Below are positions 4,825 through 64,000 of a stretch of 64,000 nucleotides of DNA, one piece after another. How positions within the stretch are numbered: the stretch's first letter is position 1; every line of letters begins with the position of its first letter. The DNA lies in NCBI GenBank assembly GCA_964016885.1, contig OZ024743.1, forward strand, positions 217,434,001-217,498,000, read 5' to 3'. The notes beneath the pieces are model-generated. The model saw nothing but the letters and a program-made list of their open reading frames with translations, made no database searches and was not told where the DNA came from. This stretch comes from Eledone cirrhosa (Eukaryota). The position numbers were made by a program, and so were the translations under genes.

Positions 4825-7252
4825 TTGGTGTTGGATACTCAAAGCGTCCGTATGCGGTAGGCCGTATGAACATTCGATGCCCTCGTAGGGCAGAGAATGC
4901 AGGGCGCGGAAACAAGAACCTGAAAGATCTCAGCTCCAAGATTAAAAGCATGTAGAGGTTCCCGCACTTACTTGTACCTTCGGATAAGACGGCTAACATT
5001 TACAGGATGAAACACAGAACCTACGGAAAATGCATGGAGAAAGAGATTAGGAAATTTATAGGATTACGGGTCACGACAAACTTGACAGAATAAACAACAC
5101 GACCAAAAACCTAATGAGAGGACTGGAAGTAGCATACAAGACTAAACAGCAAGTGAACTTCGTGCAGCTAGACGTAGCAAATTACTACGCCTCTATCTCA
5201 CCAGTAATTGTAAACAAGGCCCACGTGAGCGCTATGGCAAGCTCCAACTTAACTATAGGTGAAGTGGACATCATTATAGCTGCTGAAAGATGCTCATTAG
5301 GTTTGACGGTAGACTGTGGGAAAGCAGGGACAGACCCGACAGTTTTGACATCCCCATGGGCTCGAGCGACTCCGCACAGGTGACGGACGTGGTGGGAATT
5401 TATCTACTCCATAGGTTAGCAGAGGAGATTCCAGGGATAGGCGGAGGGATAGATAGGGACGATGCCATATTTACCTTCCGCTCATTAAACTCTATCCAGC
5501 TGGAGCGCATACGGAAGCGCATCTCACATTTCTTTAAGCAGCACGGTTTATCCGTGCTAACAGAAAATAGCACTAAGACATTAAACTTCCTAGACGTATC
5601 CTTGGAACTGGATAGAGGTTTATACCGACCATATCACAAGCCCAACAACGAGAACCCGCAGTACGTAAACAGGCACTCAAACCACCCCCAAGTGGTTATT
5701 GACGCCATAGTGAAGGGGGGGTATCCACCTGAGTATCCACACTGTCCGCCAACGTAGATGTGTTCAATCAGCACGCCGACTACTATAATGAGGCACTGGG
5801 AAGGGCCGGGTACACAGAAGCCATAGTGTACACCCCGGACAAGGGCAGGCGGCATAGAAAGGAACACAAATACCCGGATACCACTAGTAATAACTTAGAC
5901 AGACAACTTACCCATAAGCAAACAACTAACAGTATAGATAGGAGTATTAAACACAACAGTGATGACAGCACAACGCATATACAGATGACGGAACTCTAGG
6001 GAACACAACACATATGGACTGAACAACAGTAGTAACGCCTGGCACCAGAACGGGCAAACCAAAGATAGTGAAGTAGATAACACAGCACGGAGCTTTAGGG
6101 GTAATACCAAGACTAAGAAAACCACCAATGATACGCCAGGATACTCGGGTAGCGAACAGAGACCGAAAATAAGGCTAGCAAATGTGCCCAGAACAACATA
6201 GTGAGAGAAGGCCTTTCCACAGACTTAAGTAATAGTTCTATGCATAGGGATAGAATGGGGAGGGGGGGTCAATTCTGAGTAGGGCTTAACCTGAGAGAAC
6301 AGCTTGACAATGCGCGCACTAATAGTAGCAGACGACGAAATAGAAATAGATGTAGAAACGTAACATGGTTTAATACACCATACTCGCAGCATATACGCAC
6401 TAACGTGCCAGGTCTTCTTCAGGTCATTGGACGACTGTTTCCCGGCATCGCACAGATACCACAAAATTTTCAACCGACACATCGTGAAGTTCTCATTTTC
6501 CACGGCACGCAACGTGGCAGACTACATGGCCAGGCCAACGCGTTGAAATTGAGGACACCCCACGGGCGCAACGATCAGGCACCAGACACGCTGAGGGCAG
6601 GGGTCTGCGGGGGAGCACGCGGAGGGGGCTGATTGTTCTGGTGATGTGCCTATGGGCAGAGCTGCGGCTTCGGAGGGCCCCATACTTGCCAACAGAGAAC
6701 AGCTGGTGGTGAACACTGAGTCCACCGCTCCGCCGGAGCACCACTCGAGGACCGGTGAGAAACCAAATAAGACGCCAGGACCACGTAATGGGATTTACAA
6801 AAATGATGCACGGACATGTAACTGCCGTGTCCGAGAGGAGTGCCCCCTGCAGGGAATGAGCCTACTAAGGGCGTTGTCTACAGATGTGTGGTTACCAAGC
6901 ACAAGATAGGCACACATATATCGGAGCTACACCCACGACTCTTAAGTCGAGGATGTACAACCATAAGAGCTCATTGAAGGACAGGAACAATAGACACTCC
7001 ACCAGATTGGCGGGCTTAGTATGGAGACTCAAAGACACTGGCATAGAATTTGACCTCAGCTGGAGTATTGTGCAGCATGCGAATGCGTATTTGGTCGGAG
7101 ACAGGAAGTGCAACTTATGCCTGTCCGAGGCTATGGACATAGTAAAACTTAAGGGCGACGCAGTCAACCTCAAGTCTGAAATCGTCATGGAATGCAGGAA
7201 CCAACGTAAATGCAGGCTCTCCGCCCTAGTGATACCGGATGAATCTACCTAG
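4825..7252 (+). mobile_element. Penelope-like retroelement (Naiad-like), 5'-truncated and frameshifted RT plus GIY-YIG endonuclease
   Basis: LVPSDKTANIY, FVQLDVANYYASIS, FDIPMGSSDSAQV, DRDD (decayed YRDD), NFLDV, YVNRHSNHP, WFN.PYS, KIFNR, CNCR..ECPLQG, YIGATPTTLKSRMYNH, CNLCLSE. Confidence 0.9.
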
Positions 7253-17379: not shown

Positions 17380-20300
17380 CTCAACCTACAGGCTTATATA
17401 GAGAGAAAGCCCAACCACTCGGGCCATCTTTGCCACATTCACCCACCTTTTATAAAATTTGCTGGGGTACAGCACCTCTCTCTCCATCCTGATTCTTCTT
17501 CCAAAATGATATTTGAAAAAACGAATCAGTTGTTCGCCGGAGAGAAAGGTGTCCGACCTCAGCCCTTTTAACCTCGTCCACCATATAACCTCTTTCACCA
17601 TAGCCATAACACATAGGAAAACCGCCTCTCCTTCGTTTTTGAAGGAGGGTGGCGGTTTGATCATGACAATGGACTCGGTGTTTCAACTGGATTGGTCCCA
17701 CCCGCGACAAAAGTCGTTCTACATAGCCCCATAGGTCGGTACCGCCCGGGCAGTGTACAAATGCGTGCGCGACAGTTTCCTCGTCACGCATGCATCTCGG
17801 ACAGATCTTTTTCGAAGGGTCCCTGCCGGGTTCGTTTGCCTGAGGACTGTGAGCGTCTGAGCACATTCGATGTGCCAGTCGCCCATTTTCTTCGGTCTTT
17901 TCTTGACCCAGGACTGCAGCTCGGTCAGCGAGACGAGTCGTGGGAAGGCTCGCCTCACGAACGGGGCCCACACCGGTTGTCCGGTGAGGAATACGTCGAA
18001 GTGCCGCAGCCTGAGCGCGTGTTTGCGCATCGTCAGCCACGGAATCTCCAGCCCTCCGTTTGACGGGTGTTGGCAGCAGATGGATCTTCTCACCAAAGGA
18101 GGCCGATTCTTCCAAAGGAATTGGAAGAGCGCGCGCTCCATTTAGGTGAGCGTTTTGGCTGGACAAGGAACGACGGTCAAGCGGTAGTAGATGACGGACG
18201 CTATAAAATTGTTCGCCACCTCCGCTCAACCTTTCAAGTATAGTTTACACTCGGCCCACTTTTGGGTGACCGCAAACACCTTGGCCGTCACCTCGTTCCA
18301 GTTCTTCTCCACCTGGAGGTCCGGACCAAACCAGACCCCGAGCAGTTTACCGGTCCTTCCATCCAGCGTCCGACGACGCCATCGGAAGGCATCGGTTTGC
18401 CTCTCCACGTTCCGAGTTGCAAACCGACGGATTTGTCCCGGTTCAGCTTCGCTCCTGTGAACCTTTCGTATTCCTTCAGTAAGGTGCCGACTTCCCCTAT
18501 TTGCGTGGTGCTCGACACCATTACTGTCACGTCGTCGGCGTAGGCCGACGCGGCTTTTCTCAGTCTCGGTTCCAAAGGGATGCCCTGCAATAGCTCCAAC
18601 ATCCGCAGTAGTGGCTCGAGTGTCAGTACGTACAGAAGGGAGGAGAGAGGGCATCCCTATCGGATGGATCACCTGATATGGAACGGCTCCGAGAGGGAGC
18701 CTCACCTTGTCCCTTGAGCAGATGTTGCTGCTGTGCATTGCAACAATCCAGCCCCTCCAGCACCGCATCCAGGTAACGATGGTGAACCCTATTGAAAGCC
18801 TTAGACTGATCCAAGTTGATCGGGACCCACCGAAGCCGGGTTTACACCCTACACTCTCTATGATGTATCGTATGAGGTGGAGGTTGTCGTGTATGGACCT
18901 GGTCGGGATTGCGCATGTCTGCTCTTCTCTCACCAGATTTTCGACGACAATCGCCAGCCTCTTTGCCAACACCCTGGCCAAAATCTGTAATTCTGTCTTT
19001 AGCAGAGTTATGGGTCGGAAGTTGCCCTTATTCTTGTCCTTCCTGACTAACGTGACTACGCCTTTGGTTACAGAACTGGGAATTCTCCCGTCCTCCTGAC
19101 AGTTGCAGTAGACCGCTTCCAGGAGACCGGAGAACAAGTCCGGATTTGCTACGTAAAATTCGTAGGGTAGACCGTCGAGACCTGGAGATTTGCGTTTGCC
19201 GCATTGGCTCAGCACGTCCCCTATCTCAGCGGCCGAAATCGGCCTTTCGCAGAACTTTGCTCCACTGTCCGAGAGTGCGGAAGGCCGTCGAGATATGGAC
19301 CGAAATCCATAGCCCCTCCCGGCGTGCCGCCCTGCCCAAACAGTTGAGCAAAGTGCCGCTGAAAGGACGCGCACATCTGTTTCGGCTCACGTATCACGCG
19401 TCCGTCTTGGTCCTTCAAAGACCGAATCGTGGACTCGTTGCCACTTTTCGCCTCCGTCACTCGGGCCCAGCTAACAGATTTCGCTCCATCGTTTCCCAGA
19501 GTACGTATTTTGCTCCTGACAACGCAGCCTTCATGATTTGCGTCGAAGCACTTGTCCAAGGCCGTTCTCGTTGCTAGCACGCTGGCTACGTTGCCACTCG
19601 TAAGTGCCTCTTCTACTTTATCTACCAGTCCTTTTCGGTCTTATTTCTATCTAACACTAATTCTTTACTAAAACCTATCGAGTCTAATCTAACTGCCCTC
19701 TTGAGAGTGTACCACCATCTGTTGTTGACAATGGCCCCCGTCAAGTGCTACTTAACTAAAGTGCTAATCCGACTACTGTAGGCTTTGCATGTCGGTAACG
19801 ACATGTTCAGCTTCCAGTAGCCGGGTACCTGTCTCTGTGTTCTCTCAAGGTTGACTAAGCAGATCACTAGTCTGTGATCTGAATAGGCAACCATGAACAT
19901 TTGTGGACAGCTTAACATGTCCCTATCGCTAACTCTAACTAGAAACCTATCTAGGTACGATCTAGATGTTCCGCTATGGTTGGTCCACGTCCACAGTGGC
20001 ACAGTTGGAAAATATAGTCGATATCTATCGACCAGTTGAAATCGGCCGATTAACTGTTTGATGCTGTTACACGCCCTCGGGAAATGCTCCCACATAGTCC
20101 CAACGTGCATCTTGGATTCCATTCCAATCCTCCACTAACAGCAGGGAGCGGGACGTTCCCAGAAAAGTCTCTAGACGTTTGAAGAAGTCTAGCGGCCACA
20201 AGCCTAAAGGCTCCACCTTCACTACCGTCAACGTCTAGGACCATCAGTCGACCGTCAGGGTCCAGATGTACCGTCTGTGTTACGAGGTCCACGTGTTTCC

Positions 20301-36200: not shown

Positions 36201-36758
36201 ATATATATATAAATGGACGTGGAATAAAGAACACGCGCCTTGTCCGTTCCCTGGTCGCTTCAGTTTGGATTGCCTCGGGAACGTAACCTTATTATATAAG
36301 AAGCTGTCTGATGATGCCATGGCACTGGGTACACGGAAAGTGAGACCACTGTCATCATTGAAATATATATCACAGCATTATCAATCAAGGACTTTAACAT
36401 CTGAAACTATTCTATATATATAAATATATATGTATGTTCCTACTATATCAGACGTTAAACTAATATATTTCATATCTCTTCATTGTACTGAAACTTTCAT
36501 TTACGGTTCGCATATATATATATATATATATACATATATATGGGGTAACAAGTTATCGTTATAGGTAATCCAGTTAGTGGTTGTTAGTACTCTGCGTCGT
36601 GGACAGTTTTAACGCACGGCTTTGTTTAACTCAACAAGTTGTTTCTATAGCTAGGCAGTGAGTTCACGATAATTCCTATGTAGGTTATACTTGGAGTAAT
36701 AATAGTGAAAGAATGAAGAGTAACATATTTGGCCGTACAATAAGGGGCTTTATTTCAG

Positions 36759-36869
36759 ATATTGACAATTGTTTTATTGATGAGGTGAATCTAGAAGTCG
36801 CTAATCGCTCGAAGTTGCGTCATTTGATCTCTATTACATTATTTACCTCTGACCAACTCCTCAGAATAC
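36759..36869 (-). ncRNA. pLTR hammerhead copy, probably inactivated
   Basis: Same fold as 41176-41286 but GAAA reads AAAA. Confidence 0.6.
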
Positions 36870-37489
36870 AAAAACAATTCACTCAAGGTAAGATATATAT
36901 AGAGAAATAGCGTATAATCAAAACAATAACATCAATAATAAAATATATATGATAAATAGGTAGAGAAGTTACAGATGTAAAAAGTAAAAAGTATAAGATA
37001 ATCAAAAAGATGCAGTAAAAAAGTAAGAAAATGGAGAAATAATACAAATATAAAGAAATAAGGATAAGTGAGAGCATGTAAGTACAGAATATGATAGTGG
37101 TGATGGTGAGTAAGTGTTCGTACAAGGATTCTGTGGTGGGTTTAGTGCTAACTATTCGAAGCATACATAGATACGTGTAGAGAGTCTGAGGTAGTGACAG
37201 AAAGAAAAAGCAATAAATTATAGATTAATTGGGAGATACTAGTAGGAGATTTAAGGGCTAAGGGTGGATGGTGAAGGGCGGTTTGACAAATGCGTGTGGT
37301 AAATGTTTTGCTGATTGTCTTGTCTTAATAGTATTGATGCTGTTTCAGGGAGAGAGGGTGAAAGATGTTAAAACATGTATGATCTAGTGACCAGTTGGCC
37401 GTTTGACAACTAATAGCGGTGTGATGGTGCGTGTTCCATACGTTAAAATCCAGGTGGTTCAGTTCTAATTTTGGGATTGCCGGCTCGAA

Positions 37490-39866
37490 TCACGGTGATT
37501 TGAAATTTGTGAACTTGGTAGTTATGTTATGCCTACATAAAATTGATCTTTCTATTTTGCTTTTAAGCAGCATCTTATCGTATCTTAAAATATCGAATAG
37601 CTCCATATTACGAAGTCCGCAGTGTGACATTCCATTGTTGTAGGCCTTTGCTTGCGGTAATTTTGACAAGCTAATCCTATATTACTGGTTTGTGTTTTTA
37701 AGCTGCCAGATTTTATTGGCGAGCGTCGTAGAGTTCTCGAGTCTACGGTTCTTCATGGAGTATCTGTGGACGCACCACCTTTTTTTTTTAAACTCCCCAG
37801 CCGTGTAGTGCCAAGTAGAGTTGCCTGAATTTACAGTACACAGGTGCACCATACTCGAATCAGGCATCTATTTTGCACTGGGCACTTATTCGGTAGGCGG
37901 CAGTTACAGTTGGAGCTTTTCTGTGTGCAGGTTCTCCGTTGCGGTTTTGTATGTTGTTGTGGGTGGGTTGAGATTTAGGCCTATTAGTGTTTGTTGTGAT
38001 GCGCCCTAATGTGTTTGTGGTTGCGATGTTGTTATGTGTTTGCGTTTTGTATTTGGTGTTGTGGTGTATGTTGGTAGGTTATTTTCTTTAGAGATATTTG
38101 TGTGGTTGATTTTACGTATGTGTGATACTATGTTGGCTGCAGTAGAGTAAGATAAGTTGATAGTTCTTCTATTACAGATTCTATGGTATTTTTTTAGTTT
38201 AGGGAAGTGTTTGTCTATTAGCTTAGATAATATAGAAGATAGTTTGGTTTTTATAGAGGAGTTGAATATTGGGTTGAACCATAGGTATTTTCTATCTCTG
38301 GATCTTCTATAGTTCTTAGGGGTCCTTATATTAGTGTTCGGTTCAGTTATTTTTGGTGCTCGTTGTCTAATTCTATGCTTAGTCCTATGCTTGTTATTTC
38401 TATAGGTGTGGATAGTATAGTTGTCTTTGGGTTTGTTGCTGCTGTCTCTATCTGGTATGTATTCCAGCCCCTCTTTATGTCCTATCTTATGTAAAGCTAT
38501 GTTATAATAGTTTGCGTGTTCGTTAAAAATCTCTAGGTTAGAAGATAGGCTAGATATTCTAAGGGATATACTATGTGCTATGGAGTTAATTATGGATCGG
38601 GGGTGGTTTGAGTTATAACTAATGTAGGCTAGATTATCTTTATTTTTATGGAAGGGCACTATTAATCCTGTGTTTAGGTTGAGTGTTACATCTAAGAAAT
38701 TTGCTTTTTTAGAGTTAAGTTCGAAAGTGATACCTAGGCCTACTTTGTTGAAGAAGACTGATTTTTTTTCGTGATTTTTCCATGTTTTCATTATTTAAGT
38801 TTTTGGCTAAAAGGAATGTGTCGTCTCTATAAATTCCTCCCTATGGAAGTTGTGCGCTATATATATTCCCACCAAGACCGTTACCTGTGCTGAGTCGTTA
38901 GAACCCATTGTGATATCGAAGCTATTCTGTCTGTTTGTTCGTTCCCAGTAACTATTTTCGAATCTAATGATAGTTCTCCTAGGAGCTAGTATTAATTTAA
39001 TTTCAACCGAGGTAAGGTCCGAATTTTTCTGGGCAAAGGTTAGCGCTTTATCTAGGGTGACTGGGGGATATGGATGAGTAGTAGTCATTAATGTCGAACT
39101 GTACGAAGTTGGATGTTTCTCTACTGTCTATTTTGCTGAACCAGTCTATTGCTTCGTTAGTGTTAGCCTATAGCTTAAGTACTAGTTTTTCCATGATTTG
39201 TGCGATTACTCTATCTAGTATGTAGTTGCTAATTCTACCTATATCCGACTTCGATGGGCATATTAATCTAATTGCGGGGTCTATTTCGAAATTATTTTTG
39301 TGATCCTTTAGGTTAAATGTGGGGTTACAAGGGGTTAGAGGCTCGGTTATATCAGATATTTTCAGTTTTTTTACTATGCTAAGTCCTTCCTTATTAATGT
39401 TAGTGAGTGCAGATTCTATTGGTTTTTTTTTGTATTTTGGGGGAAGTTCACGGCGTATAAAATTATTTTATGTATTAAGGCTCATGGTGTATACGTTTGA
39501 TGTTTTGTACGGTTTTACTATAATGCCGTTGGTGTTGTGTAGTTATTTTAGTAGTGCATTGATGTCGTTTTGCAATTTGTTGTGATGTGTCCGTTTTTTT
39601 TATTTGGTTCCACTTATCATGTTCATGAGGTCGAGTTCGAAAGCATCAGGCTGGGGGTTATTCGGTGGATTTTTGAAGGATTTGAATCCGTATTTTTCCC
39701 TAGTAAATTCCTCCGTGTTATTAGCGTAACCTTTATCGTAACGATAGGCCTTCCATCGGATTCGACGGATGAAGTCATTAGCATGCTGTATCATGCCGAG
39801 TGTATAGTCGTTGTTTGTAGGTATAGGTATGTTTTTCAATGACATGCCTATGTGGTGGTTTTTCAT
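37490..39866 (-). pseudogene. PLE RT plus GIY-YIG ORF with several frameshifts and stops
   Basis: MSLKNIPIP..FIRRIRWKAY..YGFKSFKNPP, FDITMGSNDSAQV, NFLDVTLNL, YISYNSNHP, WFNP.F, CNCRLPNKCPVQNRCL, NSTTLANKIWQLK. Confidence 0.9.
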
Positions 39867-40135
39867 GTTAGTGTCGTGCGTTAAGGTTGTTGCTCAACCT
39901 AGTGGGAGCTGAGTATATGGAGTAACAAGTTATCGTTATAGGTAATCTATTTAGAGGTTGTGAGTACTCTGCGTCGTGGATAGTTTTTACGTACGGCTAT
40001 TTTTGACTCAACAAGATGTTTCCATAGTTAGGCAACGAGTTTGAGGTAATTTCTATGTAGGTTATACTTGGAGTAATAATAGTGAAAGAATGAAGAGTAA
40101 CATGGTTGGCTGTACAACAAGGGGTTTTATTTCAA

Positions 40136-40246
40136 GTATTAACAATTGTTTCATTGATTAGGTGAGTCCAGAAGTCGCTAATCGCTCAAAGTTGTGCCAC
40201 TGGACCTCCATTACATTATTTACCTCTGACCAACTCCTCAGAATAC
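40136..40246 (-). ncRNA. pLTR type I hammerhead (GUU triplet)
   Basis: Minus strand gtatt-CTGAGGA-gttggtcag..ctaatcaat-GAA-ACAATTGT-T-aatac. Confidence 0.8.
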
Positions 40247-41175
40247 AAAAACAATTCACTCAAGGTAAGATATATATAGAGGAATAGCGTATAATCGAAA
40301 CAATAACATCAATAATAAAATATATATGATAAATAGGTAAAGAAGTTACAGATGTAAAAAGTAAAAAGTAAAAGATAATCAAAAAGATACAGTAAAAAAG
40401 TAAGAAAATAGAATAATAATACAAATAGAAAGAAATAAGGATAAGTGAGAGCATGTAAGTACAGAATATCGATGTGATGATGTGTATTCCATACGTTAAA
40501 ATCCTGGTGGTTTCTGTAGGCATAAAATATCTACCAATTTCACAAATTTGAAACCAACGTGATTCGAGCCAGCAATCCTAAAATTAGAACCGAACCACCT
40601 GGATTTTAACGTATGGAATACACACCATCACACCTCTATTAGCTATCAAACGGCCAACTGGTCCCTACATCATAAATCTCTTAATATCTCTTTCACCCTC
40701 TCTCCCTGAAACAGCATCAACCCCATTAAGACAAGACAATCAGCAAAACATTTACCATAAACATTTATCAAACCTTCCTTCACCATCCACCCTTAGCCCT
40801 TAAATGTCATTTAATTAATCTCTAATTTATTGCTTTTTCTTTTTTCTGTCACTACATCAGACCCTCTACACGTATTTATGTATGTTTCGAATAGTTAGCA
40901 CTAAACCCACCAAGAATCCTTATACGAACACTTACTCACCACCACCACTATCATATTCTGTACTTACATGCTCTCGCTTATCCTTATTTCTTTATATTTG
41001 TATTATTTTTCCATTTTCTTACTTTTTTACTGCATCTTTTTGATTATCTTATACTTTTTACTTTTTACATCTGTAACTTCTCTACCTATTTATCATATAT
41101 ATTTTATTATTGATGTTATTGTTTTGATTATACGCTATTTCTCTATATATATCTCACCTTGAGTGAATTGTTTTT

Positions 41176-41286
41176 GTATTCTGAGGAGTTGGTCAGAGGT
41201 AAATAATGTAATGGAGATCGAGTGACGCAACTTCGAGTGATTAGCGACCTCGAGACTCACCTGATCAATGAAACAATTGTCAATAC
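41176..41286 (+). ncRNA. pLTR type I hammerhead (GUC triplet), intact
   Basis: gtatt-CTGAGGA-gttggtcag..ctgatcaat-GAA-ACAATTGT-C-aatac, followed by AATAAA. Confidence 0.88.
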
Positions 41287-41354
41287 CTGAAATAAAGCCC
41301 CTTGTTGTACGGCCAACCATGTTATTCTTCATTCTTTCACTATATAAAAAAAAA

Positions 41355-56082: not shown

Positions 56083-56419
<337 letters not shown>

Positions 56420-56673
56420 ATATATATATATGTATATGTATATGTATATGTTTATATATATATATATAATTTAGTTATTCCTGCTTCCTAACTACTGCTC
56501 GTATATGTGTATACATTTTTGAGTGCATATATATCTGTGTATATGTATGTGTATGTATTTATGTTCTTGTCCGTATTTCTATGTAGACGCAAATACGCTT
56601 ATCTGAGAAGTATATGTCTACGTACCTTTTAGTATATGTGCGTAGTTGAGTGTGTGTATGTTTACGTTCTAGA

Positions 56674-59723: not shown

Positions 59724-59995
59724 TCATATTACAGCGGGAGGGACAAATGAACGTTGAACGTTGAACCACATCAACCACTTTGAAGAAGCATTACTAATTG
59801 CCGTTTATTGACTTATACACCAAACAATCGATTTTGCTTATCTATCTATCTAGCTATCTATATATATATCTTATTTTATTATATATAGTTTATTGTTATT
59901 TATTAATGTTAAAGTTATTTTTATGTAAAACCCCCGCCGTCACGGCTTGTAATGTCCCAATTTTTGTACGCCCCTGTTGCAAATAAAGAAAGATA

Positions 59996-60200
59996 TCTAT
60001 ATATATATAAATGCAAGTTTACGATTCTGTGTGTCCGCCTAAAACTAGCAAACTACCGGACCAAACTCCTCAAAATTACATGTATATATTCACTATACAC
60101 TCGGACAGGTAACGGTCGAAAAAGCTTTACTTTGCAAAGCAAGGAATTCATTTAAATTCAATTTATCTTATTTTCTATTGAATATCAAAAGAGATCATCC
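59996..60200 (+). mobile_element. probable Helitron 5' terminus (non-autonomous type)
   Basis: A|TCTATATATATATAAATGCAAG..ctgtgtgtccgc..aaactaccggacc..aaaatt resembles animal Helitron 5' ends (from memory). Confidence 0.5.
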
Positions 60201-60231
60201 ATTTTGTTTTTTTATGTCCTCCAGTCTGTAG

Positions 60232-60725
60232 ATAAGAGAGTGAGGGATGGGAGAGAGAAAGAGAGAGAGAGTTAGGGATGAGAGAAAAAGAGAGAGGGTG
60301 GGAGATAGGAGAGAGAGTAAGGGGATGAGAGAGAAAGAGAGAGAGTGAGTGGTTAGGAGACAGAGAGTAAGGGGATGTGAGAGAGAAAGAAAGAGAATAA
60401 GGGATGAGTGAGAAAGACAGAGAGTGGGAGATGGAAGAGAGAGAGTAAGGGGATGTGAGAGAGAAAGAAAGAGAGTAAGGGGATGAGAGAGAAAGACGAT
60501 GAAAGAAAGAGAGGGAAAGCAGCCAGCCTTCATTAACTTTTATTTATTTATTATTTTTACACACTTCTTAACTCTCCCGCTTCCTTAACGTTATTTATCT
60601 TTTCTTTATTTTTTGTTCTCTATTCTGTAAAAAGAGGGGGGATATGAGAGAGAAAAAAAGAGAGTGAGAGTAATGGGATGGGAGAGAGAGAGGGAAAGCA
60701 GCCAGCGTTCATTAACTTTTATTTA
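60232..60725. repeat. purine-rich minisatellite (gagagtaaggggatg(a/t)gagagag-type) with a duplicated gagggaaagcagccagc..ttcattaacttt block
   Basis: Read directly. Confidence 0.85.
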
Positions 60726-61086
60726 TTTAGTAGCTGAGCTACCAGCTGATACCCGGGTTGTTTTATGAAAGTTACAATATATTTGGCACACATTACAAAA
60801 TATTTGACCATTCAAATATGATTGCTGAATTTTAACCAAAGTATAGCAGAATATTTATTGCCGTTTGGTTAAAGTAAATCATCTAGATAAAAATATCATT
60901 TTCTTTTCAGTGGTGATTTTTTTAATACAGCCCCCTATTACAGTCAGCATGTATAATGCTTTACTCATAGATGAATCATTAGGTATATTGTCAGTGAAAA
61001 GGGCATGACCAAAAAAATACATTTAGATTTTTTTTATTTATCCTTTTCTTTCTTTTCTTTTTTTTTGTTCAATCTAAACCTCTGAA

Positions 61087-61285
61087 ATTCAAACAACATG
61101 TAAAGACTATTTAAAAAACCATAAATAAAATAATTGTTTCTACTTTAGGCACAAGGCCAGCAATTACCCAGTGCATTACTAGTACCTTATTAGTAATGCA
61201 CTGGGTAATTGCTGGCCTTGTGCCTAAAGTAGAAACAATTATTTTATTTATGGTTTTTTAAATAGTCTTTACATGTTGTTTGAAT
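61087..61285. repeat. perfect hairpin (95-bp arms, 9-nt loop) containing a duplicated SINE family A tail
   Basis: 61087-61181 is the reverse complement of 61191-61285. Confidence 0.9.
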
Positions 61286-61804
61286 AAATAAAATAATAAA
61301 ATAAATGAAGCATTTACTTACTCATTTCTGTAATTCAAGGAAAGTGTATTTAAATTTGTACACTGTAGCTTTCACCAATCTTTGCCTCTGTGGCAGTAGG
61401 ATCTTGTTTGAGGGAGATTTGTTTTCTATTTCTATTAGCTATACCAACAGTTATAGTGGCTCACATGACATACATAGATACATACACACACATGTATGTG
61501 TGTAAGACAGTTGTTTGTAATTTGAAATGGATTTTGCTAATATTTCTAGTAGATCGAGTTATCACATAGAACCATTCATTTTTTGCTGAGAAAGTAAGGT
61601 GAGATTTGAAGGAAATTTGGCTACTATTTCTACCTAACAAATCCTCACTTATACTACTTTATATAGCAGAGGTACTCGGGAATACCTGCATATTCTTCCA
61701 AAGTAACACCATGCAGTAAATTTGCGGCTTCAGAATTCCTTGCAAACTACATGACTATGGAATTAGGATCTGTATTGTCATTGAATGAGGAATTACGACA
61801 TTGC

Positions 61805-62953
61805 TCATTCCAAAGTCTCTGGATAAACAACATTCTTGGTTTTGCCCTGTGGTGCCACAATGAAGAGACAATCAGGGTTCCCAACCCTTGTTGTTCCAAC
61901 ATAGAGTTGACCATGTGAAAAGATAGGATCTGCCAGATTCAACCCAACGACTTTCAATGATTGCATTTGAGATTTATTAATGGTCCTGGCAAAACTATGC
62001 CTGATCGGAAATTGAAGTCTTTGAAATTCAAATGGCAAATCAGTTGATTTCAGAGGTATTCTGGGAATGAAACAATTGTCACCAGCAAATTTTCCTGACA
62101 TGATTGCAGCTTCTAGAACATTGGACATCATATTTTTGATGATTTTCTTGTGCCATTACAAAGTTTTGGAGGATCCAGATTGCGAAGTAGCATAACCGAT
62201 GCTCCAAGCTTCAGTATCAGGTTGTGTGGAAGAATTCCCGCTCGTTCAAGACTGTTCAAAAATTCAGTTGGATAGTTTACAACCTGGTCTTGAGAAGTGA
62301 TTGTGTCAACTGATTTGTAGCATATTTTCTCTCCCGGTAACATCACCAGCAGCCTTCTGTTGATTTCTTTCACAGCAACATTTTTAGGTGCTAAGATTGC
62401 TCGTTCACAGAGCCATTTCGGATCACATTGCCTGGTCTGAATGTTTGGAAAGACTCTGGCAATCAGTACTTGTTCTGCGTCAATGATATGGCCAAATGAC
62501 AACTGAATATGGTCATTGGAGTTCTTTCCAAGAAGTCCATTTCCCAATTTATGTAGTTGGATGGCAAACTCACTGACACCTTCGTCACCAGGCAAGTGCA
62601 CGCGCATGTTGGTTGTAAGGCTCAGCAGCCGAAAGCGGGGCCAGAGATAGGATGTTTTCAGACAGGTATTGACCTGATCAGCTCGAGTCGCTCGAAGAAT
62701 TACAGGCAGAGTTTGTCTGAAATCACAAGCAAGAACCATTGTCACTCCTCCCATTATGCAACTATTTTCTCTCAGATCCCTTATCGTCCGGTCCAAAGCT
62801 TCAATTGTTCCTTTATTGCTCATAGTAGCTTCATCCCAAATTATCATCTTGCATGTTTTCAGAAGCTTGCCCTTGGGTGAGTTCTTCTTGACGTTGCAAA
62901 AAGATTCTTCATGCCGTGTGAGATCTATGGGCAGCTTTAACATGGAGTGTGCA
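61805..62953 (-). pseudogene. Helitron-type Pif1 (SF1B) helicase, N-terminally truncated, one frameshift near 62130
   Basis: AHSMLKLP, IIWDEATM, CDFRQTLPV, LTTNMRV, ERAILAPKN, MLLRNLDPPKLCNGTR, FIPRI, RLQFP, TINKSQ, FSHGQLYV, TKNVVY; Walker A and Rep domain are absent. Confidence 0.95.
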
Positions 62954-63110
62954 ATCATTGAAAGTCGTTGGGTTGAATCTGGCAGATCCTGTCTTTTCAC
63001 ATGGTCAACTCTATGTTGGCACAACAAGGGCTGGGAACTCTGATTGTCTCTTCATTGTGGCACCACAGGGCAAAACTAAGAATGTTGTTTATCCAGAGGC
63101 TTTGGAATGA
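62952..63110 (+). pseudogene. inverted duplicate of the helicase C-terminal 52 codons
   Basis: QSLKVVGLNLADPVFSHGQLYVGTTRAGNSDCLFIVAPQGKTKNVVYPEALE followed by stop. Confidence 0.9.
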
Positions 63111-64000
63111 GCAATGTCGTAATTCCTCATTCAGTGACAATACAGATCCTAATTCCTTAGTCATGTAGTTTGCAAGGAATTCTGAAGCCGCAAATGTACT
63201 GCATGGTGTTACTTTGGAAGAATATGCAGGCATTCCCGGGTACCTCGGCTATATAAAGTAGTATAAGTGAGGACTTTGTTGGGTAGAAATAGCAGCCAAA
63301 TTTCCTTCAAATCCCACCTTACTTTCTCAGGTATGTATATAGCAAAAAGGAATGGTTCTATGTGATAACTCGATCTACTAGAAATATTAGCAAAATCCAT
63401 TTCAAATCACAAACAACTGTCTTACACACATACATGTGTGTGTATGTATCTATGTATGTCATGTGAGCCACTATAAATCTCCCTCAAACAAGATCGTACT
63501 GCCATAGAGGCAAAGATTGGTGAAAGCTACAGTGTACAAATTTAGATACACTTTCTCTGGATTACAGAATTGAGTAAGTAAATGGTTCATTCAATCATAA
63601 ACCAATGCTAAATTTAGTTTCTTATTTTATTTATGCTTTTTAAAATAGTCTTTACATGTTGTTTGAATTTCAGAGGTTCAGATTGAGCACAAAAAAAAGA
63701 AAAAAAGAAAGAAAAGGATAAATAAAAAAAAAATCTAAATGTATTATTTTGGTCATGCCCTTTTCACTGACAACATACCTAATGGTTCATCTATGAGTAA
63801 AGCATTATATATGCTGACTGTAATAGGGAGCAGTATTAAAAAAATCACCACTGGAAAAAAAAAATATTTTCATCTAGATGATTTACTTTGACCAAACGGC
63901 AATAAATATTCTGCTACAATTCCTACTTTGGTTAAAATTCAGCAATCATATTTGAATGGTCAAATAATTTGTAATGTGAGCCAAATATATTGTAACTTTC

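What the first reader, a model, noticed from the sequence alone, without database searches (positions are those of the whole stretch)
60767..64000. Pif1 helicase fragment enclosed by >1 kb inverted repeats made of its own 3' end
Seen: the last 52 helicase codons, the stop codon and ~1 kb of downstream sequence are present twice in inverted orientation around a 984-bp helicase core. The switch occurs at a shared TGCA (61962-61965 / 62950-62953), exactly where the gene is cut at the AHS motif, so Walker A and Rep are lost. The arms differ by substitutions and indels, so this is not a fresh read artefact. Known: Helitrons lack long TIRs. Inference: a template-switch fold-back produced an element with two outward-facing Helitron 3' ends. 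It may be a TIR-like derivative that moves as a unit, or a hairpin-RNA locus able to silence Helitrons.
Basis: partly seen in the sequence, partly recalled or inferred. Interest (0 to 1): 0.75.

Follow-up and report, generated by a model that had tools for sequence, protein, structure and literature searches.

The report
Dead Helitron holding its mirrored tail
This is a single broken copy of a common rolling-circle jumping gene (Helitron) whose middle has been replaced by a back-to-front copy of its own tail, likely because the element inserted into itself and then lost the centre; we found no second copy, so it is most likely an old accident rather than a new kind of mobile element.

Summary
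The inverted arms, 984-bp helicase core and TGCA junctions are real. But the unit is larger than reported: a 735-bp Helitron 5' piece lies outside the left arm and the right arm ends at a normal hairpin-CTAG|T at 64037. So this is one 4.0-kb Helitron1 copy (59996-64037) with ordinary outer ends, in which about 4.1 kb (Rep, Walker A) is replaced by an inverted copy of its own last 2.1 kb. No second copy of either junction was found, and 0 of 37 fetched family loci share the layout. The arms share rare variants (one origin) yet differ by 5%, like unrelated copies, so the event is about as old as the family's burst and not maintained. The inner arm stops at the element's 3' terminus, beside T of an A|T site, which points to the transposase: likely inverted self-insertion plus a microhomology deletion (0.5), or template switching (0.3). 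A mobile TIR-like unit is not supported; hairpin silencing is untested. The scan earlier noted a family-wide inverted-tail layout in an unrelated Helitron2 lineage of this genome; I confirmed it in 6 of 8 stretches.

The parts
59871..59995 (+). 3' end of a high-copy host repeat (flank); the Helitron sits in its simple-sequence tail
   Evidence: 1829 candidates, best 98% identical; joining the two flanks restores the tail seen in 10 of 11 other copies
59996..60729 (+). Helitron 5' piece (parental 1 to about 705-735); first base is 59996 (TC) or 60000 (start of the TA run)
   Evidence: 87-92% to 5' ends of family copies; 1.6% from the family majority over 243 columns; TC is not constant in the family
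60730..61965 (-). Left arm: inverted copy of the 3' 1.1 kb, ending CTAC|T (family CTAG|T), terminal hairpin damaged
61087..61285 (.). 199-bp palindrome: SINE 3' remnant plus 47 bp of arm DNA folded back on itself; left arm only
   Evidence: 97.5% self-inverted; same SINE at the same site in L035 and L049
61962..61965 (.). TGCA, private to this copy (family mostly GGCA, in the KSQGQS codons)
   Evidence: 1 of 100 listed matches, of 108 found; 0 of 37 loci
61966..62949 (-). 984-bp inverted Pif1 helicase core, frameshifted, decaying without purifying selection
   Evidence: Pfam; frame change; 4 synonymous and 24 non-synonymous codon changes against the family majority
62950..62953 (.). Inner junction TGCA: joins the AHS codons (minus strand) to the start of the right arm
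   Evidence: 1 match in the genome at up to 2 mismatches; microhomology is 3 nt against the family, 4 nt against this copy
62950..64000 (+). Right arm: last 52 helicase codons, stop, 3' non-coding DNA. It continues 37 bases past the window edge (L011 5001-5037) to an intact terminal hairpin and CTAG, followed by T
   Evidence: hairpin -6.5 kcal/mol, as in a family copy

Best explanation
This is one non-autonomous Helitron1 copy with normal outer ends whose middle is replaced by an inverted copy of its own 3' 2.1 kb, likely made when the transposase inserted the element into its own 5' region on the opposite strand and a later deletion likely removed the centre of the resulting palindrome. Shown: layout, variants shared by the arms, no second copy found, neutral decay. 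Inferred step 1: RepHel joined the CTAG 3' end to the T of an AT-rich A|T site 735 bp inside the same element, either on the circular intermediate (autointegration, which would give an inverted dimer that still has one intact end junction for integration) or at the genomic copy; one later G>C change gave CTAC. Inferred step 2: the long inverted repeat collapsed by a deletion of about 10 kb between two TGCA words, leaving a 984-bp spacer. Afterwards the arms diverged independently and the left arm took a SINE and a small fold-back. It most likely does nothing today.
For: Outer ends and empty-site tail. Inner arm ends within one base of the terminus, beside T of the parental A|T; by chance about 5 in 7000 positions (my estimate). 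AT-rich 3' flank fits the Helraiser target preference (PMC4778049 passages). One donor: the T>CA variant near the 3' end occurs only in the two arms against 89 exact family-type matches; a 4-bp deletion is in both arms and 0 of 31 other aligned copies. Same-donor tandem copies exist in this family: the dimer at C1:130.84 Mb shares 9 substitutions and a 27-bp deletion. Inverted self-insertion followed by loss of inner parts was proposed for Fusarium Helitrons (PMC5148889 Fig. 8 legend). Circles are known intermediates (PMC4778049, PMC5876387 passages).
Against: Needs two events, and the full inverted dimer is not seen (0 of 37 loci). The inner end reads CTAC, not CTAG; one family copy (L050) has a G at that place, which would turn the junction into a 2-bp microhomology with no need for the transposase join. 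Helraiser showed no local hopping in 701 re-insertions, which argues against the genomic version. The private T at the left TGCA is explained more naturally by repair in a hairpin intermediate. The tree does not join the two arms (star-like, weak support), and the automatic sharing score of the arms (2, with the T>CA site masked) is reached by 21 other pairs of 496. The 4-bp deletion also occurs at 2 other loci.
Confidence: 0.5

Rival explanations
1. Template switching (fold-back, FoSTeS/MMBIR type) in one round of synthesis: copying ran back through the 3' arm, switched strand at GCA/TGCA, copied core and arm again to the end, and rejoined the 5' piece by a 2-bp microhomology.
For: One event. 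Explains the private T at the stem base by repair in a single-stranded hairpin. Local inverted duplications that seem to owe nothing to the transposase are seen here: the 199-bp palindrome in the left arm and a 626-bp inverted copy of a Helitron end plus flank at C2:102.84 Mb.
Against: Does not by itself explain why the inner arm stops at the terminus; it needs a free or nicked end there, which brings the transposase back in. In the C2 case the duplicate ignores the terminus.
Confidence: 0.3
2. An unrelated family copy inserted in reverse into this one, a deletion followed, and early gene conversion made the arms share a few variants.
For: Arm-arm difference 4.99% (51 of 1022) lies in the range of unrelated copies (median 4.3%, 95th percentile 5.9%); tree does not join the arms; left arm has a SINE at the same site as L035 and L049.
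Against: The T>CA variant is in no other copy found; shared variants lie 870 bp apart with no identical tract longer than chance (66 nt against a median of 73); left arm shares 0 substitutions with L035 and 1 with L049, so the SINE site looks like a hotspot.
Confidence: 0.09
3. The locus is or was a hairpin-RNA silencer of its family, like Mu killer or the Ac composite insertions.
For: The arms would form a stem of about 1 kb; 20 identical runs of 21 nt or more remain, 678 nt in all. Precedents in maize (listing; abstract). Its age fits the family's single burst, but any transposase-made event would.
Against: Arms diverge like free copies, with no homogenisation; the left arm is disrupted by a SINE palindrome; no host protein domain was found among 45 long frames nearby, only reverse-transcriptase pieces, though short exons would be missed.
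Confidence: 0.06
4. A TIR-like derivative that moves as a unit between two outward-facing 3' ends.
For: Two inverted 3' ends exist.
Against: One copy of the inner junction; left arm is internal; no duplication of a target site at the arm ends; left terminus and hairpin are damaged.
Confidence: 0.03
5. Assembly artefact from fold-back reads.
For: None direct; the locus could not be confirmed from reads.
Against: Arms differ at 5% of sites with independent indels and a SINE in one arm only; a read artefact would give near-identical arms.
Confidence: 0.02

Closest known systems
Canonical Helitron1 / HLE1 (Helraiser type; PMC4778049, PMC11417382 passages)
   Same: Parent family has Rep (PF14214, HUH and Y-x3-Y motifs) plus PIF1, 3' hairpin and CTAG, A|T target, no target duplication.
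   Different: This copy lacks Rep and Walker A and carries an inverted 3' block; 5' TC is not constant in the family.
Composite FoHeli by inverted self-insertion (PMC5148889, Fig. 8 legend and section 16 passages)
   Same: A copy inserted in reverse into a copy of itself, outer ends kept, inner parts lost.
   Different: That was a proposal for Helitron2 elements with reversed ORFs; here the inner 3' end is kept, both junctions are resolved to the base, and the product did not spread.
Mu killer (PMC3440606, listing only) and Ac/Ds composite insertions (bioRxiv 2020.01.07.897926, abstract)
   Same: Inverted duplication of transposon DNA made by aberrant transposition or rearrangement.
   Different: Those are cut-and-paste elements with shown or proposed hairpin transcripts and siRNAs; nothing of that is shown here.
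Fold-back-tailed Helitron2-type (DUF6570) lineage of this genome (earlier scan notes)
   Same: An internal inverted copy of the 3' end that stops at CTRG|T, a spacer, then the outer 3' end.
   Different: There it recurs across copies, is 190-220 bp, 97-99.5% matched and lies downstream of the ORF; helicase only 23-25% identical to this family. Here it is one copy, 1.1 kb, 95% matched, and destroys the ORF.

Membership tests
Helitron1 / HLE1 | RepHel coding in the family (Rep with HUH and two tyrosines, Pif1 helicase) | tested here: met
   PF14214 and PF05970 in L013 and L024; HUH and YxxxY-type motifs. Lost in this copy except the helicase core.
Helitron1 / HLE1 | 3' hairpin and CTRR terminus | tested here: met
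   L011 5009-5037, just past the window edge
Helitron1 / HLE1 | 5' TC terminus | tested here: inconclusive
   TC at 59996-59997, but it overlaps the flank repeat's tail; TC directly precedes the TA run in 8 of 19 starts listed, and 4 joins to an upstream Helitron end read CTAG then five TA
Helitron1 / HLE1 | Insertion between A and T without target duplication | tested here: met
   Both possible 5' starts follow A, CTAG is followed by T, and the joined flanks restore the host repeat's tail; a TCTAT word on both sides is part of that tail
Helitron2 / Helentron (HLE2) | Short asymmetric terminal inverted repeats, T|T target, DUF6570 | tested here: not met
   A|T target; no DUF6570 in 7 family frames scanned; 23-25% identity to the DUF6570 lineage
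TIR element / MITE / Foldback | Inverted repeats at the termini of the mobile unit | tested here: not met
   Left arm lies 735 bp inside the element
TIR element / MITE / Foldback | Several copies with the same ends | tested here: not met
   Inner junction 1 match; 0 of 37 loci with an inverted arm
Killer-type hairpin locus (Mu killer) | Inverted duplication of the family's sequence | tested here: met
Killer-type hairpin locus (Mu killer) | Read-through transcript and small RNAs that silence the family | not testable with these tools
   No RNA or small-RNA data could be laid on the locus

The most novel reading that the evidence does not exclude
The locus is a dead-end snapshot of Helitron autointegration: the transposase joined the element's 3' end into its own body on the opposite strand. 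The same single step would be how the fold-back-tailed Helitron2 lineages of this genome, whose inner arms also stop at CTRG|T, first acquired their mirrored tails.
Probability: 0.15. Interest if true: 0.6.

Novelty: new member of a known kind. Interest (0 to 1): 0.27.

Why it matters
As it stands it is a well-resolved natural example of a Helitron rearranged into an inverted self-duplication, a route proposed before on indirect grounds (PMC5148889). It shows that long inverted repeats can arise in a rolling-circle element without any TIR function. It would matter more if it reflects autointegration of Helitron circles, which is testable in the Helraiser system, or if it ever made small RNAs against its family.

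Tried and rejected
Reads: no RNA holder listed, which says nothing on expression. Four public runs laid on the core and inner junction listed no joint and no piece bridging 62950; at several private sites all depth showed the family letter, so these runs seem to hold other copies only: no verdict. Tree of 33 arm rows: star-like, uninformative (5 loci dropped for lacking a full arm, 1 for lacking its start). Rfam: 0 matches. Strand bias toward G.U-compatible changes between the arms: looked at by eye, no clear bias, not tested formally; the right arm has more AT>GC changes than the left (13:6 against 5:20), unexplained, and L046 is similar. Look-ups of earlier findings by sequence and nearby place were blank. 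Paper searches listed no title or abstract start that reports this exact layout in a Helitron1; the library lacks most subscription journals and I read no supplements. A longer microhomology suggested by BLAST ends was rejected on base-level comparison.

Full report
Setting. The window is G000:C4:217434001-217498000 of a 3.0-Gb assembly. I extended it with L011, where position plus 59000 gives window coordinates. The simple-repeat and SINE content recalls octopus genomes; that is recalled and not tested.

Observation. The inverted arms, 984-bp spacer, 52 terminal codons and both TGCA words are as described. The core is a Pif1 helicase piece cut inside the TAHS motif. It has a frameshift and 4 synonymous against 24 non-synonymous codon changes relative to the family majority of 29 copies, as expected for a dead copy.

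The real unit. Mapping onto a 6.9-kb family copy (L013) gives: 59998-60732 = parental 2-705 forward; 60720-62953 = parental 6918 back to 4820, inverted; 62951-64043 = parental 5792-6914 forward. So the order is 5' piece, inverted tail, inverted core, tail. About 4.1 kb with Rep and Walker A is missing. The right end is an intact hairpin and CTAG|T at 64037. Joining the outer flanks restores the tail of a high-copy host repeat, seen in 10 of 11 other copies. The exact 5' base is 59996 or 60000, because TC is not constant in the family and overlaps that tail. The parent family encodes Rep and Pif1 and has 517 3'-end matches at up to 3 mismatches.

Copy number. The inner junction has 1 match in the genome at up to 2 mismatches, and only this locus spans it among 40 scored of 546 candidates. 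No second left junction was among 40 scored of 610 candidates; that search is a lower bound. 0 of 37 fetched family loci have an inverted arm; 6 of these belong to one tandem cluster, and all were picked as best hits to this locus.

One donor, old event. A T>CA change near the 3' end is found only in the two arms, against 89 exact family-type matches. A 4-bp deletion is in both arms and in 0 of 31 other aligned copies, though 2 further loci carry it genome-wide. Against this: the tree does not pair the arms, and an automatic score that masks sites next to gaps gives the arms 2, a value reached by 21 other pairs of 496. The arms carry 27 and 29 substitutions from the majority, 3 shared (one of them the junction T, which is not independent), and differ at 51 of 1022 sites, within the range of unrelated copies. 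Differences are evenly spread and the longest identical run is no longer than chance. The duplication therefore came at or soon after insertion and was not homogenised since (inference). The SINE in the left arm sits at the same site as in L035 and L049, but shared substitutions are 0 and 1, so I read it as a hotspot.

Junctions. Left: the inverted tail ends CTAC followed by the T of the parental A|T in an AT-rich stretch. One mutation is needed on either reading: G>C after a precise transposase join (CTAC also ends a normal copy at C2:314.4 Mb), or an earlier T>G giving a 2-bp microhomology (1 of 19 copies has it). Inner: 3 nt of microhomology against the family, 4 nt against this copy, because the left site has a private T (1 of 100 listed of 108 matches).

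Mechanism. A breakpoint at the terminus points to the transposase or to a free end. Helraiser joins CTAG to T, prefers AT-rich 3' flanks, forms circles and shows no local hopping (PMC4778049 passages; PMC5876387 passages). Insertion of a circle's plus strand into its own minus strand would, on paper, give an inverted dimer with one intact end junction, which needs no local hop (my inference, not in those passages). Collapse of long palindromes by microhomology deletion is recalled general knowledge. PMC5148889 proposes inverted self-insertion for fungal Helitrons (passages). One of two tested head-to-tail dimers of this family clearly shares private changes, the other is unclear. I give this route 0.5 and pure template switching 0.3; the private T and other local fold-backs in this genome favour the latter.

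Function. None shown. Reads gave no verdict (see Tried and rejected). No host domain was found among 45 long frames and no Rfam family. The killer-locus idea has precedents (listing, abstract) but no support here.

Comparison inside the genome. Earlier scan notes described a Helitron2-type lineage with an inverted tail. I found DUF6570 elements, fetched 8 downstream stretches and saw 190-221-bp arms at 97-99.5% in 6 of 8, each inner arm ending at CTAG|T or CTGG|T. That lineage is only 23-25% identical in the helicase. The shared layout is real; a shared mode of origin is a hypothesis. DUF6570 as an HLE2 marker is from PMC11417382 passages.

Verdict. A real, single, decayed Helitron1 with an inverted self-copy: a new member of a known kind, interest 0.27.

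Noticed in passing
window 36537-41343: Three related 570-845-bp blocks, two direct and one inverted, around a decayed coding stretch; looks like a Penelope-type element with tandem and inverted pseudo-LTRs (recalled resemblance; no Pfam hit for frame 38009-38794).
   Followed up: partly
window 56299-56420; L011 5090-5286 and 7819-7940; L012 8162-8428: Several 120-280-bp palindromes, probably MITEs or local fold-backs.
   Followed up: no
L012 3337-8009: A 467-bp tandem array of near-identical units that switches strand once, at about L012 5635.
   Followed up: no
L063-L066, L042 (C1:130.84, 247.44 and 217.3-217.7 Mb): Head-to-tail dimers of this Helitron family, all joined as CTAG plus five TA; one dimer's units share private changes; the C1:217 Mb copies lie in a roughly 50-kb periodic duplication.
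   Followed up: partly
L021 about 880-910: The 3' end of what looks like a different Helitron abuts this family's 5' end with the same join.
   Followed up: no
L060-L061 (C2:102.84 Mb): A 626-bp inverted duplicate of a Helitron 3' end plus about 430 bp of flank, 2 kb downstream, 97% identical.
   Followed up: partly
L035, L049, window 61129-61243; L041, L044: One SINE inserts repeatedly at the same AT-rich sites of this Helitron family.
   Followed up: partly
L071-L078: DUF6570 Helitrons with open frames of up to 2245 aa and fold-back tails.
   Followed up: partly
window 17453-19386: Decayed reverse-transcriptase pieces on the minus strand, probably a LINE.
   Followed up: no
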